Origin: a virus
DNA length: 64,000 nt
IMG/VR virus record: IMGVR_UViG_3300037190_000626
Coordinates: 1 to 64,000 of that record
Reading direction: 5' to 3' (one strand)
Below are positions 1-34,120 of this stretch, one piece after another. Under the pieces are notes generated by a model, which was not told the origin of the DNA, made no database searches, and saw only the letters and a program-made list of their open reading frames with translations. The position numbers were made by a program, and so were the translations under genes. Each line of letters opens with the position of its first letter. Positions within the stretch are counted from its first letter, which is position 1.

Positions 1-561
1 ATATGAATATTTCTGAAACGCAAACGGTGTTTGACGCGTTGAGCGTCTGCAATCGTCCCGTCCACAACGGGACGTTATCATTAGGCAGAAACCCAAGACG
101 GGGTGAGCATATACTCACCCGCATTGATTCAAGCTTTCTATTGCCACCGGTGATGAAAGCTTTCATCAACGTCAACCCCGAAGCGGCCCTCGACTTCTTC
201 GATAGGTTATGCCTAGATAACGGCGGGAAGTTCCCCGAAGCCGCACTCATCGAGAAACTGGGGCTAGAGGTAGCCCCACACGCTGGGACGATCCGGTTCG
301 ATGGAAATCGACGAGTCGCAGTTAAACTCGGCGGAAGCAAGCTCATCGGCTACGGTCGAGGAGCAGAGTAGTCACAAGAGTGACTTATCGCCTGCACGGA
401 GCAGGCAGTTATGCGTTGAGATGTGTACAATGTGGTACAATCTCAGCCTGACTGCTCTCTGTGCAGGCGGACGGGGTTGGTTAGCATTCATACGCTTGAC
501 CTTCCCCCTTAGCTATTAGAGAATAAGACTATGTGTTGTACTTTTACCGAAGGAGAAAATC

Positions 562-894
562 ATGGGTTTGTTTGTTCGAGAAGATCTCAGTAAGTTTGCA
601 GATGATCTGGGGTCTGGAATTGTAGTACTGGAAAGTGAAGAGCGGCATAATTTTCCGCTAGCCATTGAAGATTTGCGTTCTATGGGTGCTCGTAATCTGG
701 CTATCGGGTATGCGGCAAAGTTGGGTTGTTCTGATCCTCGTGTTAACGGGGTTAGTAGCCCAGCTTACGCTGTGAATCAGGACGGCGATACGCTAGAGAA
801 AGTTGCGAATGATACTGACCTTCCCCCGCAACATCCTAAACGTCAGGTGTGCTCTTACCGTGTGGATATTCCAATATGCAAGAAATTAGTTTAG
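562..894 (+). CDS. hypothetical phage protein
   Basis: ORF of 110 aa with AAGGAGA Shine-Dalgarno just upstream of the ATG. Confidence 0.6.
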   Translation: MGLFVREDLSKFADDLGSGIVVLESEERHNFPLAIEDLRSMGARNLAIGYAAKLGCSDPRVNGVSSPAYAVNQDGDTLEKVANDTDLPPQHPKRQVCSYRVDIPICKKLV

Positions 895-1340
895 AGCAAT
901 GGGCCAAGTGCCTAGCCATTCTGGACCTTAAAGAAGTCAAACGGTACGGTAAACAACTGGGTATTACGGAAGATACTCTCTCTGTTTATTCGCAGTTACA
1001 GTTTGCGCTTGTAGACTGGCTATCACATCTGGGCATCTTCACGGATGCGGTGATCCTAGAGATTATTCGGACACTGTGTCCATGTATCGAAGGACTCTCC
1101 GTTGACTTCGAAGATAACGAAGAAGTCTCGGTATTCACCGTGGCGATATGCGATAGTCGGTGGGTATCATGCAGCAGGCGTGAAAAGTTCTTTGACGCTG
1201 AGACTTTCGAGGATGTCGAAGAACTTCCGGAATACGGGGTTACACACATCATGTGTGATGTAATACAGTTGTATAGCCGAATGCACTACCGATTGGTTAA
1301 AATAGAAAGCACCCCCAGCACGGAGGCTGAACATGCTTAG
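849..1340 (+). CDS. hypothetical phage protein (true start probably the internal MQEISL ATG)
   Basis: ORF overlapping both neighbours in operon-like fashion. Confidence 0.55.
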   Translation: MLLPCGYSNMQEISLEQWAKCLAILDLKEVKRYGKQLGITEDTLSVYSQLQFALVDWLSHLGIFTDAVILEIIRTLCPCIEGLSVDFEDNEEVSVFTVAICDSRWVSCSRREKFFDAETFEDVEELPEYGVTHIMCDVIQLYSRMHYRLVKIESTPSTEAEHA

Positions 1341-2019
1341 TACCAATCCCAAAGTGGTAACGCGAACGCTTTTAATGGAAGAAAGCACGCACGCCACTGT
1401 TCTGTTACTTATTCTCTTGGACACCTATGGTCCAGAGGCACTAGAGTGGGCTCCTGAAACTATTAGTATGGAGCTCAAAGATGATTATGCTGTGAATATT
1501 ACCAAGCAAACCTTGGATAAGACCATGGCAGCCATCTCGATTGTCACCACTAATTACTTCTACAAAGATGTATTGAAGTTTATTGAGCTGGTGAACATTC
1601 TCTCTGGTGATGACGCAGAACCTGATGAATTCGACCCGGCGACGGCTGGTGAGATTCTATGGGGATTGTCGGAAGCGTTCTTGTTGTGGCCTCCCGAGCA
1701 GGGAGACAACCCTGAGGATACTCAATTCTCTGCGGAGATCATTGAGTACATGTCACAGGTAATGCGGGATGAGGGTTATATGTCAGCACCAGATATGCTG
1801 GCCCTTAGCGGGCATGATACGACCCAGTTCGTCCGAGACACGTGGTCGGACGACCCTGAGATGTATCAAGCGATATACGAGGTACAGCAGCAGAAGATGG
1901 AAGACTTGAAGATGTCTTTGAATGACAACTTCAAAGAGTTACTTTTGCAGCTACAACTATTACCTGTGAAATCAGGGAACAAAGAAGAGATCATGAAGAA
2001 GATCATGAGCCCTAACTGA
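1333..2019 (+). CDS. acidic hypothetical protein of large phages
   Basis: 228 aa ORF, GGAGG SD upstream, followed by a terminator. Confidence 0.6.
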   Translation: MLSTNPKVVTRTLLMEESTHATVLLLILLDTYGPEALEWAPETISMELKDDYAVNITKQTLDKTMAAISIVTTNYFYKDVLKFIELVNILSGDDAEPDEFDPATAGEILWGLSEAFLLWPPEQGDNPEDTQFSAEIIEYMSQVMRDEGYMSAPDMLALSGHDTTQFVRDTWSDDPEMYQAIYEVQQQKMEDLKMSLNDNFKELLLQLQLLPVKSGNKEEIMKKIMSPN

Positions 2020-2043
2020 ATTAAATAATAACAAAATTAACTA

Positions 2044-2076
2044 CCCTCATTGACTACTGGTCAATGGGGGTTTTTT
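2044..2076 (+). terminator. intrinsic terminator
   Basis: CCTCATTGAC-tactg-GTCAATGGGG hairpin followed by a T-run, just after the stop at 2019. Confidence 0.75.
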
Positions 2077-2077
2077 A

Positions 2078-2752
2078 ATGGCATGGCAAGGAGTAATTAT
2101 GGGTTTGAACAAATATCGGGATGTCGAATATTCCGACGACGGCTGTGAGGTGTATGAGTGCATGGCCTGTAAAGCTCAGTGGGAGGTTAGATACTTTCCT
2201 ACTGCGTACTGCGGCAATTGCGGCATTAAATTCGAAGGACAACACGAGTGTCGTGGTCATTATACACCTCGGTGGGAGTATGAACGATTTGATGGGCATT
2301 ACTGGGATGAGAGAGACTACGAAACTCGCCGGGCTGAAGATAAAGAAAAAGAAGCTATCAAAGCCAAAGAAAAGGTGTGGGTGATTCAGAAGAGAATTAC
2401 TTTATTGGAAAGCGAGTATAGCTGGGATTACGAAAGCGATGCGGAACCTTTCCCACGTGTGGGGGAGTGGCGAGATGAGTACCGCTCCGATAGGCCTGCA
2501 TGGCTACACCCTGCAAGAGATATTCATGCAGAGCTCGTACGCCACAGAAAATACGATAACGATTTAGCGGAAGCTGAGGCGTACACCCAGCGTATAGAGA
2601 AGAAACAACTGTGTGAAACGGTCACCGAAGCAGGCGGGGACGTCAGCGAGTGGGGCTGCGACCGTGTCACCGTTGAGAAGTTCGAGCATAGAGTTGTCAC
2701 CAAGTTTCGTGGTGATGCTCGTGGCTCAGTTATTTATTACAGAGAAAGGTAG
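2078..2752 (+). CDS. hypothetical protein with N-terminal CxxC...CxxC zinc ribbon
   Basis: CMAC and CGNC motifs; GGAG SD precedes the internal MGLNKY start. Confidence 0.6.
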   Translation: MAWQGVIMGLNKYRDVEYSDDGCEVYECMACKAQWEVRYFPTAYCGNCGIKFEGQHECRGHYTPRWEYERFDGHYWDERDYETRRAEDKEKEAIKAKEKVWVIQKRITLLESEYSWDYESDAEPFPRVGEWRDEYRSDRPAWLHPARDIHAELVRHRKYDNDLAEAEAYTQRIEKKQLCETVTEAGGDVSEWGCDRVTVEKFEHRVVTKFRGDARGSVIYYRER

Positions 2753-3024
2753 AACATGAGTTTTATGGAAGAAGCCCTGACGGCGGCAGCAAAATGCCCC
2801 GAGAAGCACGACTTTAAAGTCGGCGACAAGATACGAATCCTACATCGAGATTACATCGATGAGATTGCGGTAGTCAGGGGTTTATCCGAGAACCTTCTCG
2901 GTAAGCCTTTGTTGGACGTCGATATCGACTATGGCCGTGATGGGATTTTGAAAGGCCTGTGTTTTTACCCTGACGAGGTAGAGCATTATGTGCCTCAATC
3001 ACTTACTGAACAGAAAGGTAAACT

Positions 3025-3717
3025 ATGTCACACGTAGCAGAAAGTAAAATCAAGATCACGGACATTCAGGCATTGCTTGAAGCCGTGAAGGCAGGTTGTC
3101 CCGACCTAGAATTGGTACGGGGAACCGAGTATCGAACGTGGGTTACGGATCACGGCTCCTTGGCGGGAGACTATCCGTTAGCCGCGCTATACCAGTTAAA
3201 GGCAATCGGTCAGATGACTAAGGACGGTCATGACGTGCACGCCCTAGCTAAAACTCAAGGAGTTACTCTTCCTGAGAAGCTGGCTGATGTTGAGAATAAT
3301 CCGCTAACTCTGGAAGAGCTAAGAAAGCTCAAACAAATTCCAGAATTTAAGGATGCACTCGACGAGGTAGAAAAGTCTATCAGCAAAGATTCGGAATACG
3401 TCATCCGATATAAAGAGGGTCACCCAGAGCATGGGAAAGCCTATGAAGTTGGTGTTGTACCTCACCCATACAAGAAGGGTGAGTACACATTGATGACTGA
3501 CTTCTATCAGAATGGCAAAGGCCTGTTCGATGCGAAGGGCTTAGGTGGTTACAAGCAGGTAGAGAAAGACGGGAAAACAAGTGATGACTGGGGGCAGGAG
3601 CTTCGCCAGCGTTATACCGTTATTGCTATGCGTAACCGTGCTCAGAAAGAGGGTAAGAAGGTTACTAAAGTAGAAAAACTAGCGGACGGTTCTGTCCGAA
3701 TGGAGATCTCAGAATGA
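3025..3717 (+). CDS. DUF1257/Ycf35-like protein
   Basis: N-terminus MSHVAESKIKITDIQALLEAVK and C-terminus ...LADGSVRMEI resemble DUF1257; neighbours a DUF2997-like gene and an AAA ATPase. Confidence 0.6.
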   Translation: MSHVAESKIKITDIQALLEAVKAGCPDLELVRGTEYRTWVTDHGSLAGDYPLAALYQLKAIGQMTKDGHDVHALAKTQGVTLPEKLADVENNPLTLEELRKLKQIPEFKDALDEVEKSISKDSEYVIRYKEGHPEHGKAYEVGVVPHPYKKGEYTLMTDFYQNGKGLFDAKGLGGYKQVEKDGKTSDDWGQELRQRYTVIAMRNRAQKEGKKVTKVEKLADGSVRMEISE

Positions 3718-3886
3718 GTGATGAACCTTTTTATCATTCTACTTTCCCGCCTTTTACTGGGAAAAAAGAGGCAATGTTTAAGTGCCGTGAGTGCGGTACG
3801 AAATATGAACAGTCATTTTGCTCAACTGACGATGTGGCTATATGCCGCTGGTGTAGTGGAGAAGAAAAAGAAGCGGGGATATTAGA

Positions 3887-4171
3887 ATGAGCGTACGTGA
3901 AGAAATAGATGAGATGATTCAGGAGATGAATCCTGACGCAATGTTCATGGACGGATTAGATGACGCCATTATTGGCATTGGATGCCAGTACACAGGTACG
4001 CCTCTGGTGGTCTATAGCGCTACCAAGATTATCGAATCCCTCATGGCGGGTGACGACGGGATGGACTATGAGACCGCCCAAGAGCATTACGGATTTAACA
4101 TTGCGTGTGCATACGTGGGAGAAGGAACCCCAATCATCGTTGAAGACTGGATAATCGAGGAGAACAAATAA
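3887..4171 (+). CDS. conserved small phage protein (DG.DDAIIG...FNI..AY.G..TP family)
   Basis: Motif recognised from phage hypothetical proteins. Confidence 0.55.
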   Translation: MSVREEIDEMIQEMNPDAMFMDGLDDAIIGIGCQYTGTPLVVYSATKIIESLMAGDDGMDYETAQEHYGFNIACAYVGEGTPIIVEDWIIEENK

Positions 4172-27532: not shown

Positions 27533-27841
27533 ATGGTAGAACGATTTGGGCCTAGCGTTAGGAGAACACGACGGCCCCCTGACCCTGAGTGGTTAAAGTT
27601 TATGTCCACAGACGAGAAAGAGGCTATGCGGTTAGAGGAGTGGATGCTGACTAGTTTAGCAGACACCGGCCTATCCGTACGTGCTGTCAATTGTCTGGAA
27701 GGAAAAGGTATTTTAACCGTGAGTCAGTTATCTCAGCAAACCAATGACGATTTGTTGGGTATCGTAAACTTTGGGGTACAAACATTGGAACAATGTAAAA
27801 GACTTCTGATGAACATAGGAGTTCCCCACAGTCTAAAGTAA
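27533..27841 (+). CDS. stand-alone RNA polymerase alpha C-terminal-domain-like protein
   Basis: LSVRAVNCLEGKGILTVSQL...DDLLGIVNFGVQTL matches alphaCTD (L.VR..NCL...I..+..L...LL...N.G..SL). Confidence 0.8.
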   Translation: MVERFGPSVRRTRRPPDPEWLKFMSTDEKEAMRLEEWMLTSLADTGLSVRAVNCLEGKGILTVSQLSQQTNDDLLGIVNFGVQTLEQCKRLLMNIGVPHSLK

Positions 27842-27863
27842 GAGAAAATTTGTTTAGCAGATT

Positions 27864-27895
27864 AAGCCTAGGGTGTGTTGCCCTAGGCTTTTTTT
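27864..27895 (+). terminator. intrinsic terminator
   Basis: AAGCCTAGGG-tgtgttg-CCCTAGGCTT perfect 10-bp stem plus T-run. Confidence 0.8.
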
Positions 27896-27924
27896 ATGCA
27901 CATTTGAGACAAGGAAACGAAAAC

Positions 27925-28689
27925 ATGGCTACAGTTACGAAGACTAGCGCAAAGAAGCCTGCGGCTAACGACCCTTTCGCTAAGACGCGAATTGAGATTC
28001 CCGAAGTGAACATGGATATCTTCAAGTGTCGCCTTATTGGCGAGACCCCGTTGGTTATTCATGCGATGGGTGAAAAGAAGCGTAAGGAAATGCGCGATTT
28101 GATGGGCCCCAAGACGGCGGCCTCTAAGGTGCGACCCCCAAAGGATCAGGCGGGTGAGTACTTTGACGCAATGTATATTTTGAACAATCAGATGGACAAG
28201 GACGGTAAACGCCCTAACCCACATCACAACGATCAGGAATACAGCTACGAAGGTATCTTCGTTCCGCTGGCCTTTGAAGACGCTACTGCGGTTCATGGTG
28301 TGCGTGCTTCCGGGTTCCGGCTCGGTATGGTTCGTGCCGCTAAGAGCTGCGGTGCTGTGATGACGGACACTCGCTGTAACATGCGAGTTAGAAGTCCGTT
28401 TGGCTCGTTCGTCCCGTTGAGCTTTGAGACGGTTGTCTCCCGGGAAGACCCCGTGAAGTTGCAGGGCAACAAGACTGACCTGCGTTACCGCCCTGAGTAC
28501 ACGGGCTGGTCAGTTGACATCGAGATTGAGCACATGTCGGACATCATCGGACCAGAGCAGCTGATTCAGTTGCTGCGTATTTCTGGTCGTACGGTTGGTG
28601 TCGGCGAATGGCGTAATGAACGTGGCGGCGAGTTCGGCGCGTTCGATGTGGATCTGGACAGCGTCGAGCTGGAAAAGAAAACTCTGTAA
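27925..28689 (+). CDS. stand-alone Cas7/RAMP-fold RNA-binding protein, putative effector of the adjacent pentamer-repeat arrays (Vipr-like)
   Basis: N-terminal strand CRLIGETPLVIH, central RYRPEY.GWSVDIEIE, C-terminal Gly-rich loop SGRTVGVGEWRNERGGEFGAFDV typical of RAMPs; start at MATVTK behind AAGGA. Confidence 0.75.
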   Translation: MATVTKTSAKKPAANDPFAKTRIEIPEVNMDIFKCRLIGETPLVIHAMGEKKRKEMRDLMGPKTAASKVRPPKDQAGEYFDAMYILNNQMDKDGKRPNPHHNDQEYSYEGIFVPLAFEDATAVHGVRASGFRLGMVRAAKSCGAVMTDTRCNMRVRSPFGSFVPLSFETVVSREDPVKLQGNKTDLRYRPEYTGWSVDIEIEHMSDIIGPEQLIQLLRISGRTVGVGEWRNERGGEFGAFDVDLDSVELEKKTL

Positions 28690-28947: not shown

Positions 28948-29490
28948 ATGAGTAGTGGTTACGATGTAACTGTTGAATTTAGTGCCAAGCCGACTCGTCC
29001 TCTTAGCAATAAGGTGGCTGAAGAGGTTGGTCCTGAGATTCACGCATTGATGCAGAAGAACGAGGGGGACGAGCTTACCCCGCATGAGTACTTGGATTGG
29101 GTTAAGGCAAACCCAAACAGTAAGAGTTACAGTCAGTTTGAGTGGGAAGATACAATTGCTGCGAGAAAGTGGCGAGTTCATCAAGCTCGAAATATCATCA
29201 ATTCGATTGATATTAAGGTGATTGACGAACGCGGCGACGCGGTGAGCGTTCCTGCGTTCATTCATATTACGAGGGCAGACTCGGGTGAGGATGCTCGTCA
29301 GTTGTATACTTCTTACGAAAACGTTCTGAACGACGAGGAAAGCTCTTCACAGGTGGTAGCGAGAGCTTGCCGTGATTTCCTGTCGTGGCGTCGTCGTTAC
29401 CTGCTGCTCCGGGGTAAGCTGCCACTGGCAGACATTTACGATGCGACGGACGTTCTGGCTCAAGAGCTGGAAGCACCGGAAGAAGATTAA
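28948..29490 (+). CDS. conserved partner protein between the RAMP gene and the array
   Basis: LTP..Y...K.NP.S..Y..FEW.D..AA..WR..QAR..I.SI motif of a widespread phage hypothetical family; directly upstream of array 1. Confidence 0.7.
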   Translation: MSSGYDVTVEFSAKPTRPLSNKVAEEVGPEIHALMQKNEGDELTPHEYLDWVKANPNSKSYSQFEWEDTIAARKWRVHQARNIINSIDIKVIDERGDAVSVPAFIHITRADSGEDARQLYTSYENVLNDEESSSQVVARACRDFLSWRRRYLLLRGKLPLADIYDATDVLAQELEAPEED

Positions 29491-29568: not shown

Positions 29569-30312
29569 GGCAGTCATGGCGAGGTGTGACATGGTGAGCT
29601 GGGGCTTGTTAAGGTCTGGCGGGGTTAGGTCAGGTAAGGCAGTCTTGGCAGGGTAAGGTGTGTTAAGGCACTGCGAGGTGGGCCACGGTTAGGCGAGGAA
29701 TGGCAGTCATGGTTAGGTTTAGCGAGGCGGGGAGAGGTGCGGCAGGGTGCGGCTGGGCAGTCATGGCATGGTGCGGTCGGTACCGGCGGGGTCAGGAGGG
29801 GTAAGGCTCGGAATGGCAGTCAAGGTGAGGTTAGGCATGGTCTGGAACGTTATGCGCTGGTTTGGAGTGGTAAGGCAGTCGTGGCGGGGTGGGGCCGGTC
29901 TGGGATAGGTCCGGTTGGGTGAGGCAGTCGAGGCGGGGTCTGGTAAGTTGCGTTAAGGCGGGGAAAGGTGGGGTGGGTTACGGCAGTCAAGGCTAGGTGT
30001 GGTGTAGTGTGTCGAGGCGGCGAAAGGTCGGGCAGGGCAGTCATGGTGAGGCGGGGTGTTGCTGGGTGTGTCTGGTTCGGGGCTGGCGAGGCAGTCATGG
30101 CAGGGGGTGGTGGGTAGCGGCGGGGTCAGGAGGGGCAAGGCAGTCATGGTGAGGTGTGACACGATGAGGTGTGACATGGTTCGGCAGTCGAGGTCGGGTC
30201 TGGTTCGATCTGGCAAGCCGAGGCGTGGTGCGTTGAGGCAGGCATGGAATGGGTGGCACGGCGCGGTCAGACCACGGTGAGTAATGGCAAGGCTAGGCAG
30301 CCATGGCGCGGA
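29569..30312 (+). repeat. array 1: 13 units of GGCAGTC-NN-(GGY-NN)7-12, putative guide-RNA array
   Basis: Heads at 29569, 29638, 29702, 29756, 29815, 29874, 29923, 29982, 30036, 30090, 30139, 30183, 30237 (GGCAGGC), 30296 (GGCAGCC); unit lengths 69, 64, 54, 59, 59, 49, 59, 54, 54, 49, 44, 54, 59, all 9+5n. Confidence 0.92.
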
Positions 30313-30326
30313 TATTAACTTTACCC

Positions 30327-30698
30327 CTACTTTTCGCAGCTGCTGCAACGAGCACTCCATCTTGATCTCATCTGAGAGCGAACCGGACGTTCTTGTGCCA
30401 TAACACGTAGGGCCCGAAACGGCATAGTTGTAACTCTTACTGTGGTTCTCACAGTGGCTCTAACAAGCGTTCGAACTGGTTGTGCGTCACGGAGCCTCTT
30501 TGCGGCATTACGTAAGGGAGATCGGCAACTGCGGCCCTCTGCTGCGACGACAGGTTGCTTATCGGCTTCTTGCATACTGACAGCACTAACGTATGACACA
30601 GTTGACGCTTTGGATGCGTGATCACAATCTTGTGCGTTAACAGAGCTGAAAGAGAGAACACTTACGACAACGGCTGAAGCTAAACACTTTTTAAACAT
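30327..30698 (-). CDS. small secreted, Arg-rich protein lying between the two arrays
   Basis: Signal-peptide-like MFKKCLASAVVVSVLSFSSVNA; AGGA SD on the minus strand; PVRTLVRATVRTTVR low-complexity tail. Confidence 0.6.
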   Translation of the reverse strand: MFKKCLASAVVVSVLSFSSVNAQDCDHASKASTVSYVSAVSMQEADKQPVVAAEGRSCRSPLRNAAKRLRDAQPVRTLVRATVRTTVRVTTMPFRALRVMAQERPVRSQMRSRWSARCSSCEK

Positions 30699-30831
30699 GT
30701 CTTTTCCTGTTATTTAAGTGGTAATACGTAATGCTCCTACAAGGGAGCGACAAAATTGTAAATCTTTAATTGCGACACGGCATCCCCAAACCAGAGGTAT
30801 TTTTAAAAATACTCCAAAAAAGAAGTGACGA

Positions 30832-31017
30832 GGCAGTCATGGTTAGGTGCGTACTGGTGAGGTGGGTTCAGGTCAGGCAGGGTGTGGTATGGCAGTCAAG
30901 GCGAGGTATGGTCGGGTGAGACATGGTCGGGCTGGGCGAGGCGAGGAATGGCAGTCAGGGCAAGGTCTGGTTGGGTTTGATTCGGAGGGGCGAGGAGTGG
31001 CAGTCGTGGTGCGGTTG
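30832..31017 (+). repeat. array 2: 3 full units plus a partial unit of GGCAGTC-NN-(GGY-NN)n
   Basis: Heads at 30832, 30891, 30950, 30999; lengths 59, 59, 49; same 5-nt phase as array 1. Confidence 0.9.
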
Positions 31018-31021
31018 CTAG

Positions 31022-31387
31022 ACTTAAGCTTTTGACTTAAGCTTGTGAGTCCTTACGTTAAGTAATATATAAAACAAGGAGGAGTGATGAGACCTGAGTC
31101 ATTTAGGTCAAAACCATTTATTGATTGTTCTAAGTGGGAATGTTGGAATTGCGGTGCAATTCACCATTACATACCTGCTGATTGTCAAAAATGTCGGGTG
31201 AAATTTGTCTCCCGACCTCACTGGGGTGTTCCCGAGAAAAATTCGGAGATCTCTGAAGAGAAGAAAACATCAATATCTTTTGATGAGTTAATATCTGATT
31301 TACTGAAAGGACCAGAAGAAGAGTAACTGCTTGATGCCCTGTATATATTATCTATAGGACTCACAAGCTTAAGTTAAAAGCTTAAGT
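31022..31387. repeat. 32-bp inverted repeat pair flanking a small ORF
   Basis: ACTTAAGCTTTTGACTTAAGCTTGTGAGTCCT (31022-31053) vs AGGACTCACAAGCTTAAGTTAAAAGCTTAAGT (31356-31387), 31/32 complementary. Confidence 0.85.
31084..31326 (+). CDS. small zinc-ribbon protein
   Basis: WECWNCG...DCQKC; AAGGAGG SD. Confidence 0.55.
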   Translation: MMRPESFRSKPFIDCSKWECWNCGAIHHYIPADCQKCRVKFVSRPHWGVPEKNSEISEEKKTSISFDELISDLLKGPEEE

Positions 31388-31412
31388 AACTCTAAATTCT
31401 GGGATTGACGCT

Positions 31413-32703: not shown

Positions 32704-33253
32704 GCAAGAGATAACATCTCCTCCATTTGCGACGCAATTGTGTACACCTTTAGTGATACACAGACAGTTGCAACTGTTAGAGGGGTGGGTAGATTCTCTA
32801 CGTTATTGGGCGAACGAAGAATCTCGTAGATTTGAAGCGCCAGAAGATCCGTTTATTCCAGACACGAGACCAGTGCCGGTTGATCCTGCGATATTGTCCA
32901 ACATAGCGATTCCAAGTTTGTTTCGCACGTGGATGACGCTGCGGGCTATTCGTGAGCGCTGGGACTGGATTTACCGGAATTACGAGGAGAATTGGGATTG
33001 TGATAAGTGTATTTTTAGCCGGATTATGTGTGTGAAGATGGGGGCACTTATCCTCCTAAACGCATTCCTTGATCCGGAAACCCACGAAGCGAAGCAGGAA
33101 GAAGAGCGTAAGGCCCAGCAAGAGCAGCTGGCTGAGACGCTTAAACAAATTGGTATTCCTGACACGCTTCTACAAGCAATGGGAGTAATATCCGGAGATG
33201 ACGATAAAGAAGAAATCGACTTCGACAAGCTGTTCCACCCCGACGATAACTGA
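32696..33253 (+). CDS. hypothetical protein
   Basis: 185 aa ORF, GGAGG SD, overlap with the previous gene. Confidence 0.5.
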   Translation: MSEQEITSPPFATQLCTPLVIHRQLQLLEGWVDSLRYWANEESRRFEAPEDPFIPDTRPVPVDPAILSNIAIPSLFRTWMTLRAIRERWDWIYRNYEENWDCDKCIFSRIMCVKMGALILLNAFLDPETHEAKQEEERKAQQEQLAETLKQIGIPDTLLQAMGVISGDDDKEEIDFDKLFHPDDN

Positions 33254-33290
33254 GGTGGGGCGGCGCTCGGTTCTTGCTGGTAAACGAGGC

Positions 33291-33542
33291 GTGAAAAGGA
33301 TTCACGTTAACCAACACATGATTCGAGCAAACACTAAGGACGATGAAGATCGCCCTATTTTTACATGTAAAGCGGGTAAAGCGAATTACCGAGGGCACGA
33401 GATTCAAATTCACGGGCCTTCGGTTCTTGTGTATCCGGAGAGGCCGCTCGGTTGCGGCGCACGTGTGTGGATTGAAACACTTTCACCCGTGTCTATTCTT
33501 GAATACACGGAGGAAATTACAACAGTAACAGAGGTGACGTGA
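33291..33542 (+). CDS. conserved small phage protein (IHVNQH.IR.N...GPS...Y....L.CGARVWIET)
   Basis: Motif recognised in the 3' part of ORF 33198-33542; GTG start behind GAGG. Confidence 0.6.
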   Translation: MKRIHVNQHMIRANTKDDEDRPIFTCKAGKANYRGHEIQIHGPSVLVYPERPLGCGARVWIETLSPVSILEYTEEITTVTEVT

Positions 33543-34120
33543 TGATGGAGTTGATAATTCAAAACGTTAGTGATGCTGAGAGTCCTTTGGAGTATTCTCC
33601 TTGGACTCTTATTTCGTTTAATGGCAAACACGTTAACTACGATAAGGACTTCGACCTTAAGGCTGCGGGCATTCGGCAGAAGGTAAAGGGTGCGACGGCA
33701 TTTTTCCTCGACTATTTCGAGCATGGCCAGTGTAGCTGGTCGTTGCGAGGAGAGGGCATGCAGTGTCGTTGGGATACAGCAACGTGTGCCGGGATCATTC
33801 TCGGGGACTACGAAGAATTAAAGCACCTTAGCCACGAGAGTCGATGTCAGCTCGCTAGAGACATGATGCGAAGGTACACGGATTGGTGTAACGGAAGTAT
33901 TTACGAGTATGCGTTTGTTGCCAAACATGTGTGTTCTCAGTGCAACCACACCAAGCTGGACTGGGACTGTACCGACTGGAACGGCACTTGGTATGACACC
34001 GAGGGCATGTTTGCAGACATTCAGACGGAGATGAAACGTGAGAAGTATGAAGTAAATAAAATCAGTGGTGGTGCGGCTTGGTTGGCGGATCATCACGAAT
34101 TAGAAGGGATAAAGATATGA
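33539..34120 (+). CDS. hypothetical phage protein
   Basis: LDYFEHG...WD...G...YTDWCNG.IY motif. Confidence 0.55.
   Translation: MMMELIIQNVSDAESPLEYSPWTLISFNGKHVNYDKDFDLKAAGIRQKVKGATAFFLDYFEHGQCSWSLRGEGMQCRWDTATCAGIILGDYEELKHLSHESRCQLARDMMRRYTDWCNGSIYEYAFVAKHVCSQCNHTKLDWDCTDWNGTWYDTEGMFADIQTEMKREKYEVNKISGGAAWLADHHELEGIKI

What the first reader, a model, noticed from the sequence alone, without database searches (positions are those of the whole stretch)
30832..30890. Guide unit decoding to the DGQHR motif (DndB/DGQHR-domain proteins)
Seen: ATnTAnGCnCTnGAnGGnCAnCAnAGnGTnAT reads as IYALDGQHRV(M/I). Established: DGQHR is the signature of DndB-like ParB-fold domains, common in phosphorothioate (Dnd) and other defence loci. 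Inference: a second anti-defence guide. This is the clearest single piece of evidence for the codon-register code.
Basis: partly seen in the sequence, partly recalled or inferred. Interest (0 to 1): 0.86.

Follow-up and report, generated by a model that had tools for sequence, protein, structure and literature searches.

The report
Phage VIPR guide spelling DGQHR motif
This stretch is one guide RNA unit of a phage VIPR system, a CRISPR-like silencer first described in 2026, and its two-letter code spells the conserved DGQHR motif of a subfamily of defence-island genes, so it is a new example of a known kind.

Summary
Window 30838-30897 is 12 YNNGG pentamers ending in cAGtc.

The unit lies in two G-rich arrays (29569-30320, 30832-31020). 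They follow a Cas7-like gene whose family profile hits the solved SUSP1 Vipr protein (E 2.5e-12) and a small partner gene. This is a VIPR system (bioRxiv 10.64898/2026.04.26.720920).

No perfect 22-letter target was found. The 18-letter core hit 20 loci (14 distinct sequences). Six loci (5 distinct) lie in frame on YALDGQHRV of DGQHR-type genes, and three of these were confirmed as TIGR03187. NN matches are 19-21 of 22. One lies beside SspC/SspD.

Against breadth, 0 of 4 unselected DGQHR genes reach 80%. No other parsed guide carries this code. The host and the physical target are unknown, so the anti-defence role is inferred.

This scan has noted VIPR arrays on other DNA many times. Verdict: new member of a known kind.

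The parts
27850..28689 (+). vipr gene (Cas7-like RAMP). The ORF is listed from TTG 27850. The real start is probably the ATG near 27925, because a terminator-like hairpin lies at 27864-27890.
   Evidence: The family profile A1 (24 sequences) hits PDB 36pp_D 'SUSP1 Vipr protein' at E 2.5e-12. The G-loop GvGdWRP aligns to the family's GvGeWRp. The AlphaFold model (pLDDT 76) finds Csm3/Cas7 chains at E about 1e-5. Homologues lie next to arrays in 28 of 37 loci.
28948..29490 (+). vap-like accessory gene (180 aa). A winged-helix-like fold is suggested only weakly.
   Evidence: Homologues lie next to arrays on the same strand in 29 of 37 loci. It has no Pfam family and matches phrog_15946. The model has pLDDT 90. 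The best PDB folds are forkhead, RepE and MarR, but only at E 0.08 or worse. It is paired with the vipr homologue in Mycobacterium phages such as Brocalys genes 45 and 46.
29569..30320 (+). vrRNA array 1: 12 GGCAGTC heads, 11 complete YNNGG units, then a degenerate tail
30832..31020 (+). vrRNA array 2: 4 heads and 3 complete units. It is separated from array 1 by a minus-strand ORF (30327-30698).
30838..30897 (+). The flagged guide unit: 11 variable NN plus the constant cAGtc pentamer, whose last C is the first letter of the next unit
   Evidence: Predicted target: ATxTAxGCxCTxGAxGGxCAxCAxAGxGTxAT.

Best explanation
The stretch is one vrRNA guide of a phage-borne VIPR system with a staggered array.

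Shown here:
- A Vipr-family RAMP gene, a conserved partner gene and YNNGG arrays occur together. The same trio recurs in 28-29 of 37 loci.

Taken from the 2026 preprints (not tested here):
- One Vipr protomer binds each pentamer.
- The GGY letters are flipped out into protein pockets.
- The NN letters pair with double-stranded DNA while every third target base is skipped.
- This gives an R-loop triplex that blocks transcription.

Inferred:
- This guide's natural target is the DNA encoding the invariant YALDGQHRV block of a subfamily of DGQHR-domain (DndB-like) genes.
- Such genes sit beside a GIY-YIG nuclease gene, and in one case beside SspC/SspD.
- The phage silences such a gene, whether it is carried by the host chromosome or by a rival mobile element.
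For: Array grammar and periodicity.

Recurrence of the system:
- 36 of 91 fetched IMG/VR loci hold 5 or more GGCAGTC cores within 800 nt.
- In 7 of those loci, 73 of 95 units have length 5k+4.
- Only two protein families recur next to the arrays.

Vipr membership.

Published rule and mechanism.

NN composition over 234 parsed guides: the first N is A .32 and G .30, as at codon position 1 (the comparison with codon usage is from my own knowledge).

Target scans with the 18-letter core:
- 9 loci in genome contigs and 11 in metagenome contigs.
- L099, L102, L105, L107, L110 and L111 are in frame on YALDGQHRV, with 21, 19, 19, 19, 19 and 20 of 22 NN letters. All pass the paper's 80% criterion.
- Wobble letters differ at 7 of the 9 core codons among them.
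- L099, L107 and L111 are 22-37% identical overall, yet YALDGQHRV is their longest invariant run.
- Guide-order shuffles never reach these scores (0 of 200 each).

No self-target: the best own-genome match is 16 of 22, equal to shuffles. No [DE]G[QH][QH][RS] peptide occurs in any frame of the phage.
Against: - No perfect 22-letter match in genome contigs or metagenome contigs. The 18-letter core gave 0 hits in viral contigs.
- Hit counts are not above a uniform-composition expectation. My arithmetic gives about 17 for 18 letters in 596 Gb on both strands, against 9 loci (5 distinct) seen. In 401 genomes at up to 3 mismatches there were 2 hits, against 3 for the reversed control.
- Any in-frame match must spell this peptide class, so the hits mainly show that the code equals a conserved block.
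- Breadth is poor: the 4 TIGR03187 genes drawn from 151 genomes match at only 11, 14, 13 and 16 of 22.
- None of the 233 other parsed guides carries the DGQHR code.
- The other 13 window guides do not converge on the six DGQHR loci.
- The best hit is in a Streptomyces record, an unlikely host for a 50% GC phage.
- Expression and processing of the array are untested.
Confidence: 0.62

Rival explanations
1. It is a genuine VIPR guide, but the DGQHR spelling is a coincidence. The real target is some other sequence, for instance in a rival phage, satellite or VIPR locus, that the collections do not hold.
For: No perfect match anywhere. Total hit counts are at or below chance. No second guide points to the same loci. 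The code does not recur among the 233 other guides. The published natural targets of phage-borne VIPRs are satellites, prophages and other VIPRs.
Against: Nine consecutive code words equal the longest invariant block of proteins that are only 22-37% identical. Matches of 19-21 of 22 are never reached by 200 shuffles. By my rough estimate, such a fit to a family signature is unlikely for a random guide, at about 1 in 100.
Confidence: 0.27
2. The guide serves inter-element conflict rather than anti-defence. In this reading the DGQHR gene it reads is cargo of a competing satellite, prophage or island that is switched on during infection.
For: The published role of phage VIPRs is silencing competing mobile elements. 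Silencing helps most against genes induced after infection (inference).
Against: The DGQHR subfamily was not recovered from viral contigs: 170 pattern stretches were found and none was confirmed. The one long context (L111) shows SspC, SspD and an SNF2 helicase, and no phage genes in the ORFs scanned.
Confidence: 0.3
3. It is not a guide at all. The G-rich pentamer tracts would instead be a DNA-level feature, such as replication or packaging repeats, iterons or G-quadruplex DNA.
For: No RNA evidence was obtained here. There are 0 Rfam matches in the window.
Against: The tracts are strictly linked to a Vipr-family RAMP gene across 28 of 37 loci. The YNNGG composition is that of published vrRNAs. 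The 1-nt overlapping units fit the 'staggered array' legend.
Confidence: 0.03

Closest known systems
Type II VIPR of Escherichia phage SUSP1 (Vipr, vap1, vrRNAs; bioRxiv 10.64898/2026.04.26.720920, .720927 and 10.64898/2026.10.15.759431)
   Same: A RAMP protein related by sequence (E 2.5e-12 to PDB 36pp_D). The G-loop [D/E]WR is shared. Guides are built from GGY/NN pentamers. A small accessory gene is present. The NNx target code lies in codon register on a conserved protein block, as published for the satellite recombinase.
   Different: SUSP1 vrRNAs are about 100 nt, with 9-16 repeats and a conserved 3' pseudoknot tail. Here the units are 45-70 nt, have no tail, end in cAGtc and overlap by one letter. 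The sequence match to SUSP1 Vipr covers only the C-terminal 75 profile positions. The predicted target is a defence-island gene family, not a satellite.
Staggered vrRNA arrays of other VIPR types (legend of fig. S18 of 10.64898/2026.04.26.720920)
   Same: The legend says vrRNAs derive from positions overlapping by 1 nt, so that the end of one marks the start of the next. All 14 complete units here are 5k+4 long and share one C.
   Different: I could read neither the figure nor the type tables, because supplements are closed. The VIPR type of this locus and the identity of its vap gene are therefore unassigned.
Class 1 CRISPR Cas7 backbone filaments (Csm3, Cas7)
   Same: Same fold by Foldseek (E about 1e-5, TM 0.35-0.41 on the query). 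One subunit binds per repeat of the guide, with thumb-driven base flipping.
   Different: There are no cas1, 2, 3, 5 or 6 genes and no repeat-spacer array. Periodicity is 5 nt with 2 pairing letters, rather than 6 nt with 5.

Membership tests
VIPR system | Vipr protein: a minimal RAMP with RRM core, G-loop and thumb | tested here: met
   Profile A1 against PDB gives 36pp_D 'SUSP1 Vipr protein' at E 2.5e-12. Foldseek top hits are Csm3/Cas7 chains.
VIPR system | G-loop residues that hold GGY (D177, W178, R179 in SUSP1, per 10.64898/2026.04.26.720927 section 5) | tested here: met
   In the HMMER alignment, GvGdWRP of SUSP1 lies opposite GvGeWRp of the family. The window protein reads GVGEWRN. D is replaced by E.
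VIPR system | Tandem YNNGG repeats (4 or more units) beside vipr, with GGY conserved and NN variable | tested here: met
   14 complete units hold 8-13 variable pentamers each. Over 234 guides, position 1 is C .53 / T .33, position 4 is G .90, position 5 is G .83, and positions 2-3 are near even.
VIPR system | An accessory vap gene in the locus | tested here: inconclusive
   A conserved partner gene is present in 29 of 37 loci. Its equivalence to vap1-6 could not be checked because supplements are closed. The winged-helix fold is weak, at E 0.08 or worse.
VIPR system | vrRNAs are expressed, processed and bound by Vipr | not testable with these tools
   No RNA data were available.
VIPR system | No self-target at 80% NN match or above | tested here: met
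   For this guide the best own-genome match is 16 of 22 (73%). Shuffles give mean 15.4 and maximum 17. One short 8-NN guide reaches 13 of 16 (81%), within its shuffle range (maximum 14).
Natural vrRNA target (criterion of 10.64898/2026.04.26.720920: gapless, at least 80% NN match under the 1-nt skip) | A site with at least 80% NN match | tested here: met
   L099 has 21 of 22, L111 has 20 of 22, and L102, L105, L107, L110 and L118 have 19 of 22. None is shown to come from a host of this phage.
DGQHR domain / DndB family (for the matched genes) | Score above the curated cut-off of TIGR03187 and PF14072 | tested here: met
   L099 scores 106.3 bits, L107 91.8 and L111 88.5, against a cut-off of 58.85. 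PF14072 gives 49.5-103.6 bits against 29.1. L102, L105 and L110 were judged only by their near-identical flanking peptide, and L118 only by motif and context.
DGQHR family as a whole being covered by the guide | At least 80% NN match in family members not chosen by the pattern | tested here: not met
   0 of 4 TIGR03187 genes from 151 genomes pass. They match at 11, 14, 13 and 16 of 22.

The most novel reading that the evidence does not exclude
A lytic marine phage uses a programmable VIPR guide as an anti-defence weapon. By reading the escape-proof YALDGQHRV block, it would shut off transcription of a DGQHR/GIY-YIG module linked to Ssp phosphorothioation in its host. This would extend VIPR from war between mobile elements to RNA-guided silencing of host immunity. 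None of the three preprints mentions this use in the main text I searched. Their supplements were not seen.
Probability: 0.25. Interest if true: 0.7.

Novelty: new member of a known kind. Interest (0 to 1): 0.4.

Why it matters
The locus adds a compact, tail-less, staggered VIPR array from a phage with no close cultured relative. Its closest terminase match is 30% identical.

It also gives a concrete, testable target prediction: a DGQHR subfamily found in phosphorothioation-type defence islands. If confirmed, it would be an example of a virus aiming an RNA-guided silencer at host defence genes rather than at rival elements.

The general code and mechanism are already published. The same idea has been raised repeatedly in this scan on other DNA, so the gain is incremental.

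Tried and rejected
Early ideas dropped:
- Terminal-repeat or packaging repeats, iterons, Rho or TRAP-like protein binding sites, a CsrA sponge, and TIGR-Tas arrays were all considered. They were dropped once the linked RAMP gene and the VIPR papers were found.
- Rfam gave 0 matches in the window.
- blastn of 29700-31400 against phages gave no match.

Host identification failed:
- The closest terminase and polymerase relatives are 23-30% identical and come from many hosts.

Target searches that gave nothing useful:
- Full 22-letter pattern: 0 in genome contigs and 0 in metagenome contigs.
- 18-letter core: 0 in viral contigs.
- The search for related loci with the DGQHR alignments on viral contigs: 170 pattern stretches, none confirmed.
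- 18-letter cores of two other guides (units at 30042 and 29988) on viral contigs, run as a rough control: 1 and 2 loci, none in a coherent family. This is a different collection from the one where the DGQHR hits arose, so it is only a weak control.
- The constant AG of the cAGtc pentamer does not match the next codon in any DGQHR hit. I therefore did not count it as a pairing position.

Sequencing runs:
- No RNA holder is listed.
- Three DNA runs of one study hold half or more of the words and may be the source sample. The other rows hold small shares.
- I draw no habitat or expression conclusion from this.

Supplements:
- Supplements of all three preprints (type tables, data S3 target lists) are closed. 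They may already list this locus, its type or defence-gene targets.

Full report
WHAT IS THERE

The window is the first 64 kb of a single 77,959-bp virus record with nearly all ORFs on the + strand. At 29569-30320 and 30832-31020 the + strand is G-rich, with GC skew up to +0.59. It carries 16 copies of GGCAGTC, all on the + strand; six more + strand copies and one on the minus strand lie scattered elsewhere in the genome.

Read from the C of each GGCAGTC, the DNA parses without remainder into YNNGG pentamers. Each unit ends in cAGtc, and the last C of that pentamer is the first letter of the next unit. This explains why all 14 complete units measure 5k+4: 69, 64, 54, 59, 59, 49, 59, 54, 54, 49 and 44 nt in array 1, and 59, 59 and 49 nt in array 2.

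GG autocorrelation peaks at lags 5, 10, 15 and 20 (78, 77, 59 and 60, against 16-31 at lags 2-4). Two control regions show no such peak.

THE OBSERVATION

It is the list of the two variable letters of the 11 pentamers of the unit at 30838-30892, written with a wildcard after each pair. A script that took these letters from the window returned AT TA GC CT GA GG CA CA AG GT AT.

The observation and its coordinates are therefore correct.

WHAT THE LOCUS IS

A scan of IMG/VR for the head motif at unit spacing returned 91 loci. Of these, 36 hold 5 or more heads within 800 nt on one strand. In 7 loci inspected, 73 of 95 units were 5k+4 long, with 13 at 5k+3, 5 at 5k and 4 at 5k+2.

All-against-all blastp of ORFs in those 36 loci plus the window found only two recurrent families, both on the array strand:
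- a protein of 230-280 aa (window 27850-28689) in 28 of 37 loci;
- a protein of 160-180 aa (window 28948-29490) in 29 of 37 loci.

Neither has a Pfam family. The profile of the larger family hits the solved 'SUSP1 Vipr protein' (36pp_D) at E 2.5e-12, with its G-loop GvGdWRP aligned to GvGeWRp. Its model finds Csm3/Cas7 chains.

Literature search then showed that this is a VIPR system. Vipr is a minimal RAMP. vrRNAs are YNNGG repeats with conserved GGY and variable NN. The target is read as NNx ('1 nt skip rule'), and the skipped base falls mostly on codon wobble positions. Sites occur on either strand, and binding represses transcription (10.64898/2026.04.26.720920, Results and Methods sections 20, 26 and 27).

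Structures show one protomer per repeat. GGY is held by the G-loop D177/W178/R179 and the thumb R138, and a gapped R-loop triplex forms (10.64898/2026.04.26.720927, sections 5 and 6). The legend of fig. S18 describes staggered arrays whose vrRNAs overlap by 1 nt, which fits the grammar here.

THE TARGET OF THIS GUIDE

The full 22-letter pattern has no exact match in genome contigs or metagenome contigs. The central 18 letters (TAxGCxCTxGAxGGxCAxCAxAGxGT) gave:
- 0 loci in viral contigs;
- 9 loci in genome contigs, of which 5 are one repeat at contig ends of a single MAG, so 5 distinct sequences;
- 11 loci in metagenome contigs, where L110 repeats L105 and L106 repeats L094.

Of these 20 loci (14 distinct sequences), six loci (five distinct) lie in frame on YALDGQHRV: L099, L102, L105, L110, L107 and L111. 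Counting the flanks, they match 21, 19, 19, 19, 19 and 20 of 22 letters.

L099, L107 and L111 score above the curated cut-offs of TIGR03187 (DGQHR domain) and PF14072 (DndB). These three proteins are 22-37% identical, yet YALDGQHRV is their longest invariant run. The sites differ at 7 of the 9 wobble letters.

A GIY-YIG ORF precedes the gene in L107 and L111. In L111 the next genes are SspD (PADLOC E 1e-126), SspC (E 6e-114) and an SNF2 helicase. The remaining hits are unrelated (a LysR gene, frames with stops).

A scan of 401 genomes at up to 3 mismatches gave 2 hits, against 3 for the reversed control. One of the two reads FYALDGQHRLM.

HOW MUCH THIS PROVES

Hit numbers are not above chance. 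For 18 fixed letters in 596 Gb on both strands I expect about 17 under uniform composition (my arithmetic). Any in-frame match must spell this peptide class.

What is not expected by chance is that the hits come from one alignment column of one family, and that nine consecutive code words equal that family's most conserved block. Shuffling the order of the guide's dinucleotides never reaches 19 of 22 on these loci (0 of 200).

Against a broad reading:
- The four TIGR03187 genes found in an unselected sample of 151 genomes match at only 11, 14, 13 and 16 of 22.
- None of the other 233 guides parsed from 35 arrays carries GA GG CA CA AG/CG in either orientation.
- The other 13 guides of this phage do not match the six DGQHR loci above shuffles.
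- The subfamily was not recovered from viral contigs.

The phage does not target itself. The best own-genome match is 16 of 22, as for shuffles, and it encodes no such peptide.

I put about 0.6 on a YALDGQHR-type DGQHR gene being the natural target. Whether that is anti-defence or a strike at a rival element carrying the module is open.

COMPARISON AND NOVELTY

The locus meets the tested VIPR criteria: protein, G-loop, repeat grammar and no self-target. Expression could not be tested.

It differs from the characterised type II systems in having short tail-less units in a staggered array, and from published target sets in pointing at a defence-island gene family. None of the three preprints mentions DGQHR, DndB, phosphorothioation, methylases or anti-defence in the main text I searched. 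Their supplements are closed.

This scan has already noted VIPR-like arrays in at least 432 genomes, several with suggested defence-gene targets. The finding is a correct reading of a new member of a known kind.

Noticed in passing
window 27533-27841 (+): The 102-aa ORF directly upstream of vipr carries a bacterial RNA polymerase alpha C-terminal domain (PF03118, E 2.7e-13, above cut-off). A phage-encoded alpha-CTD-like protein next to a transcription-silencing system may be worth a look.
   Followed up: no
window 30327-30698 (-): A 123-aa minus-strand ORF with a signal-peptide-like start splits the two arrays. It has no Pfam or PHROG family. It looks like an insertion into a once continuous array.
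   Followed up: no
window 31022-31053 and 31356-31387: A 32-nt inverted repeat, 97% complementary and built from AAGCTTAAGT-type subrepeats, brackets an 80-aa ORF with CxxC pairs (31084-31326) just after array 2. Contigs of two runs join the two arms on opposite strands.
   Followed up: no
window 29600-30950, contigs of runs X2 and X4: Metagenome contigs related to the arrays join distant units, with about 30 other pentamer-style letters between them (joints 29788>29981, 30048>30938 and 30042>30886). Related phages therefore seem to carry different guide sets. The contigs are short and repeat-rich, so misassembly is possible.
   Followed up: partly
I did not examine it.
   Followed up: no
L055 (IMG/VR locus), oriented coordinates 416-3947: One GC-rich viral contig carries three arrays with 30 heads in all, and units of up to 89 nt in the same grammar. 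This was the largest set seen here.
   Followed up: no
Mycobacterium and Gordonia phage records (e.g. Brocalys 32918-33879): Cultured actinophages hold adjacent homologues of both the vipr-like and the partner gene, each annotated as hypothetical protein. They could serve as laboratory models for this clade.
   Followed up: no
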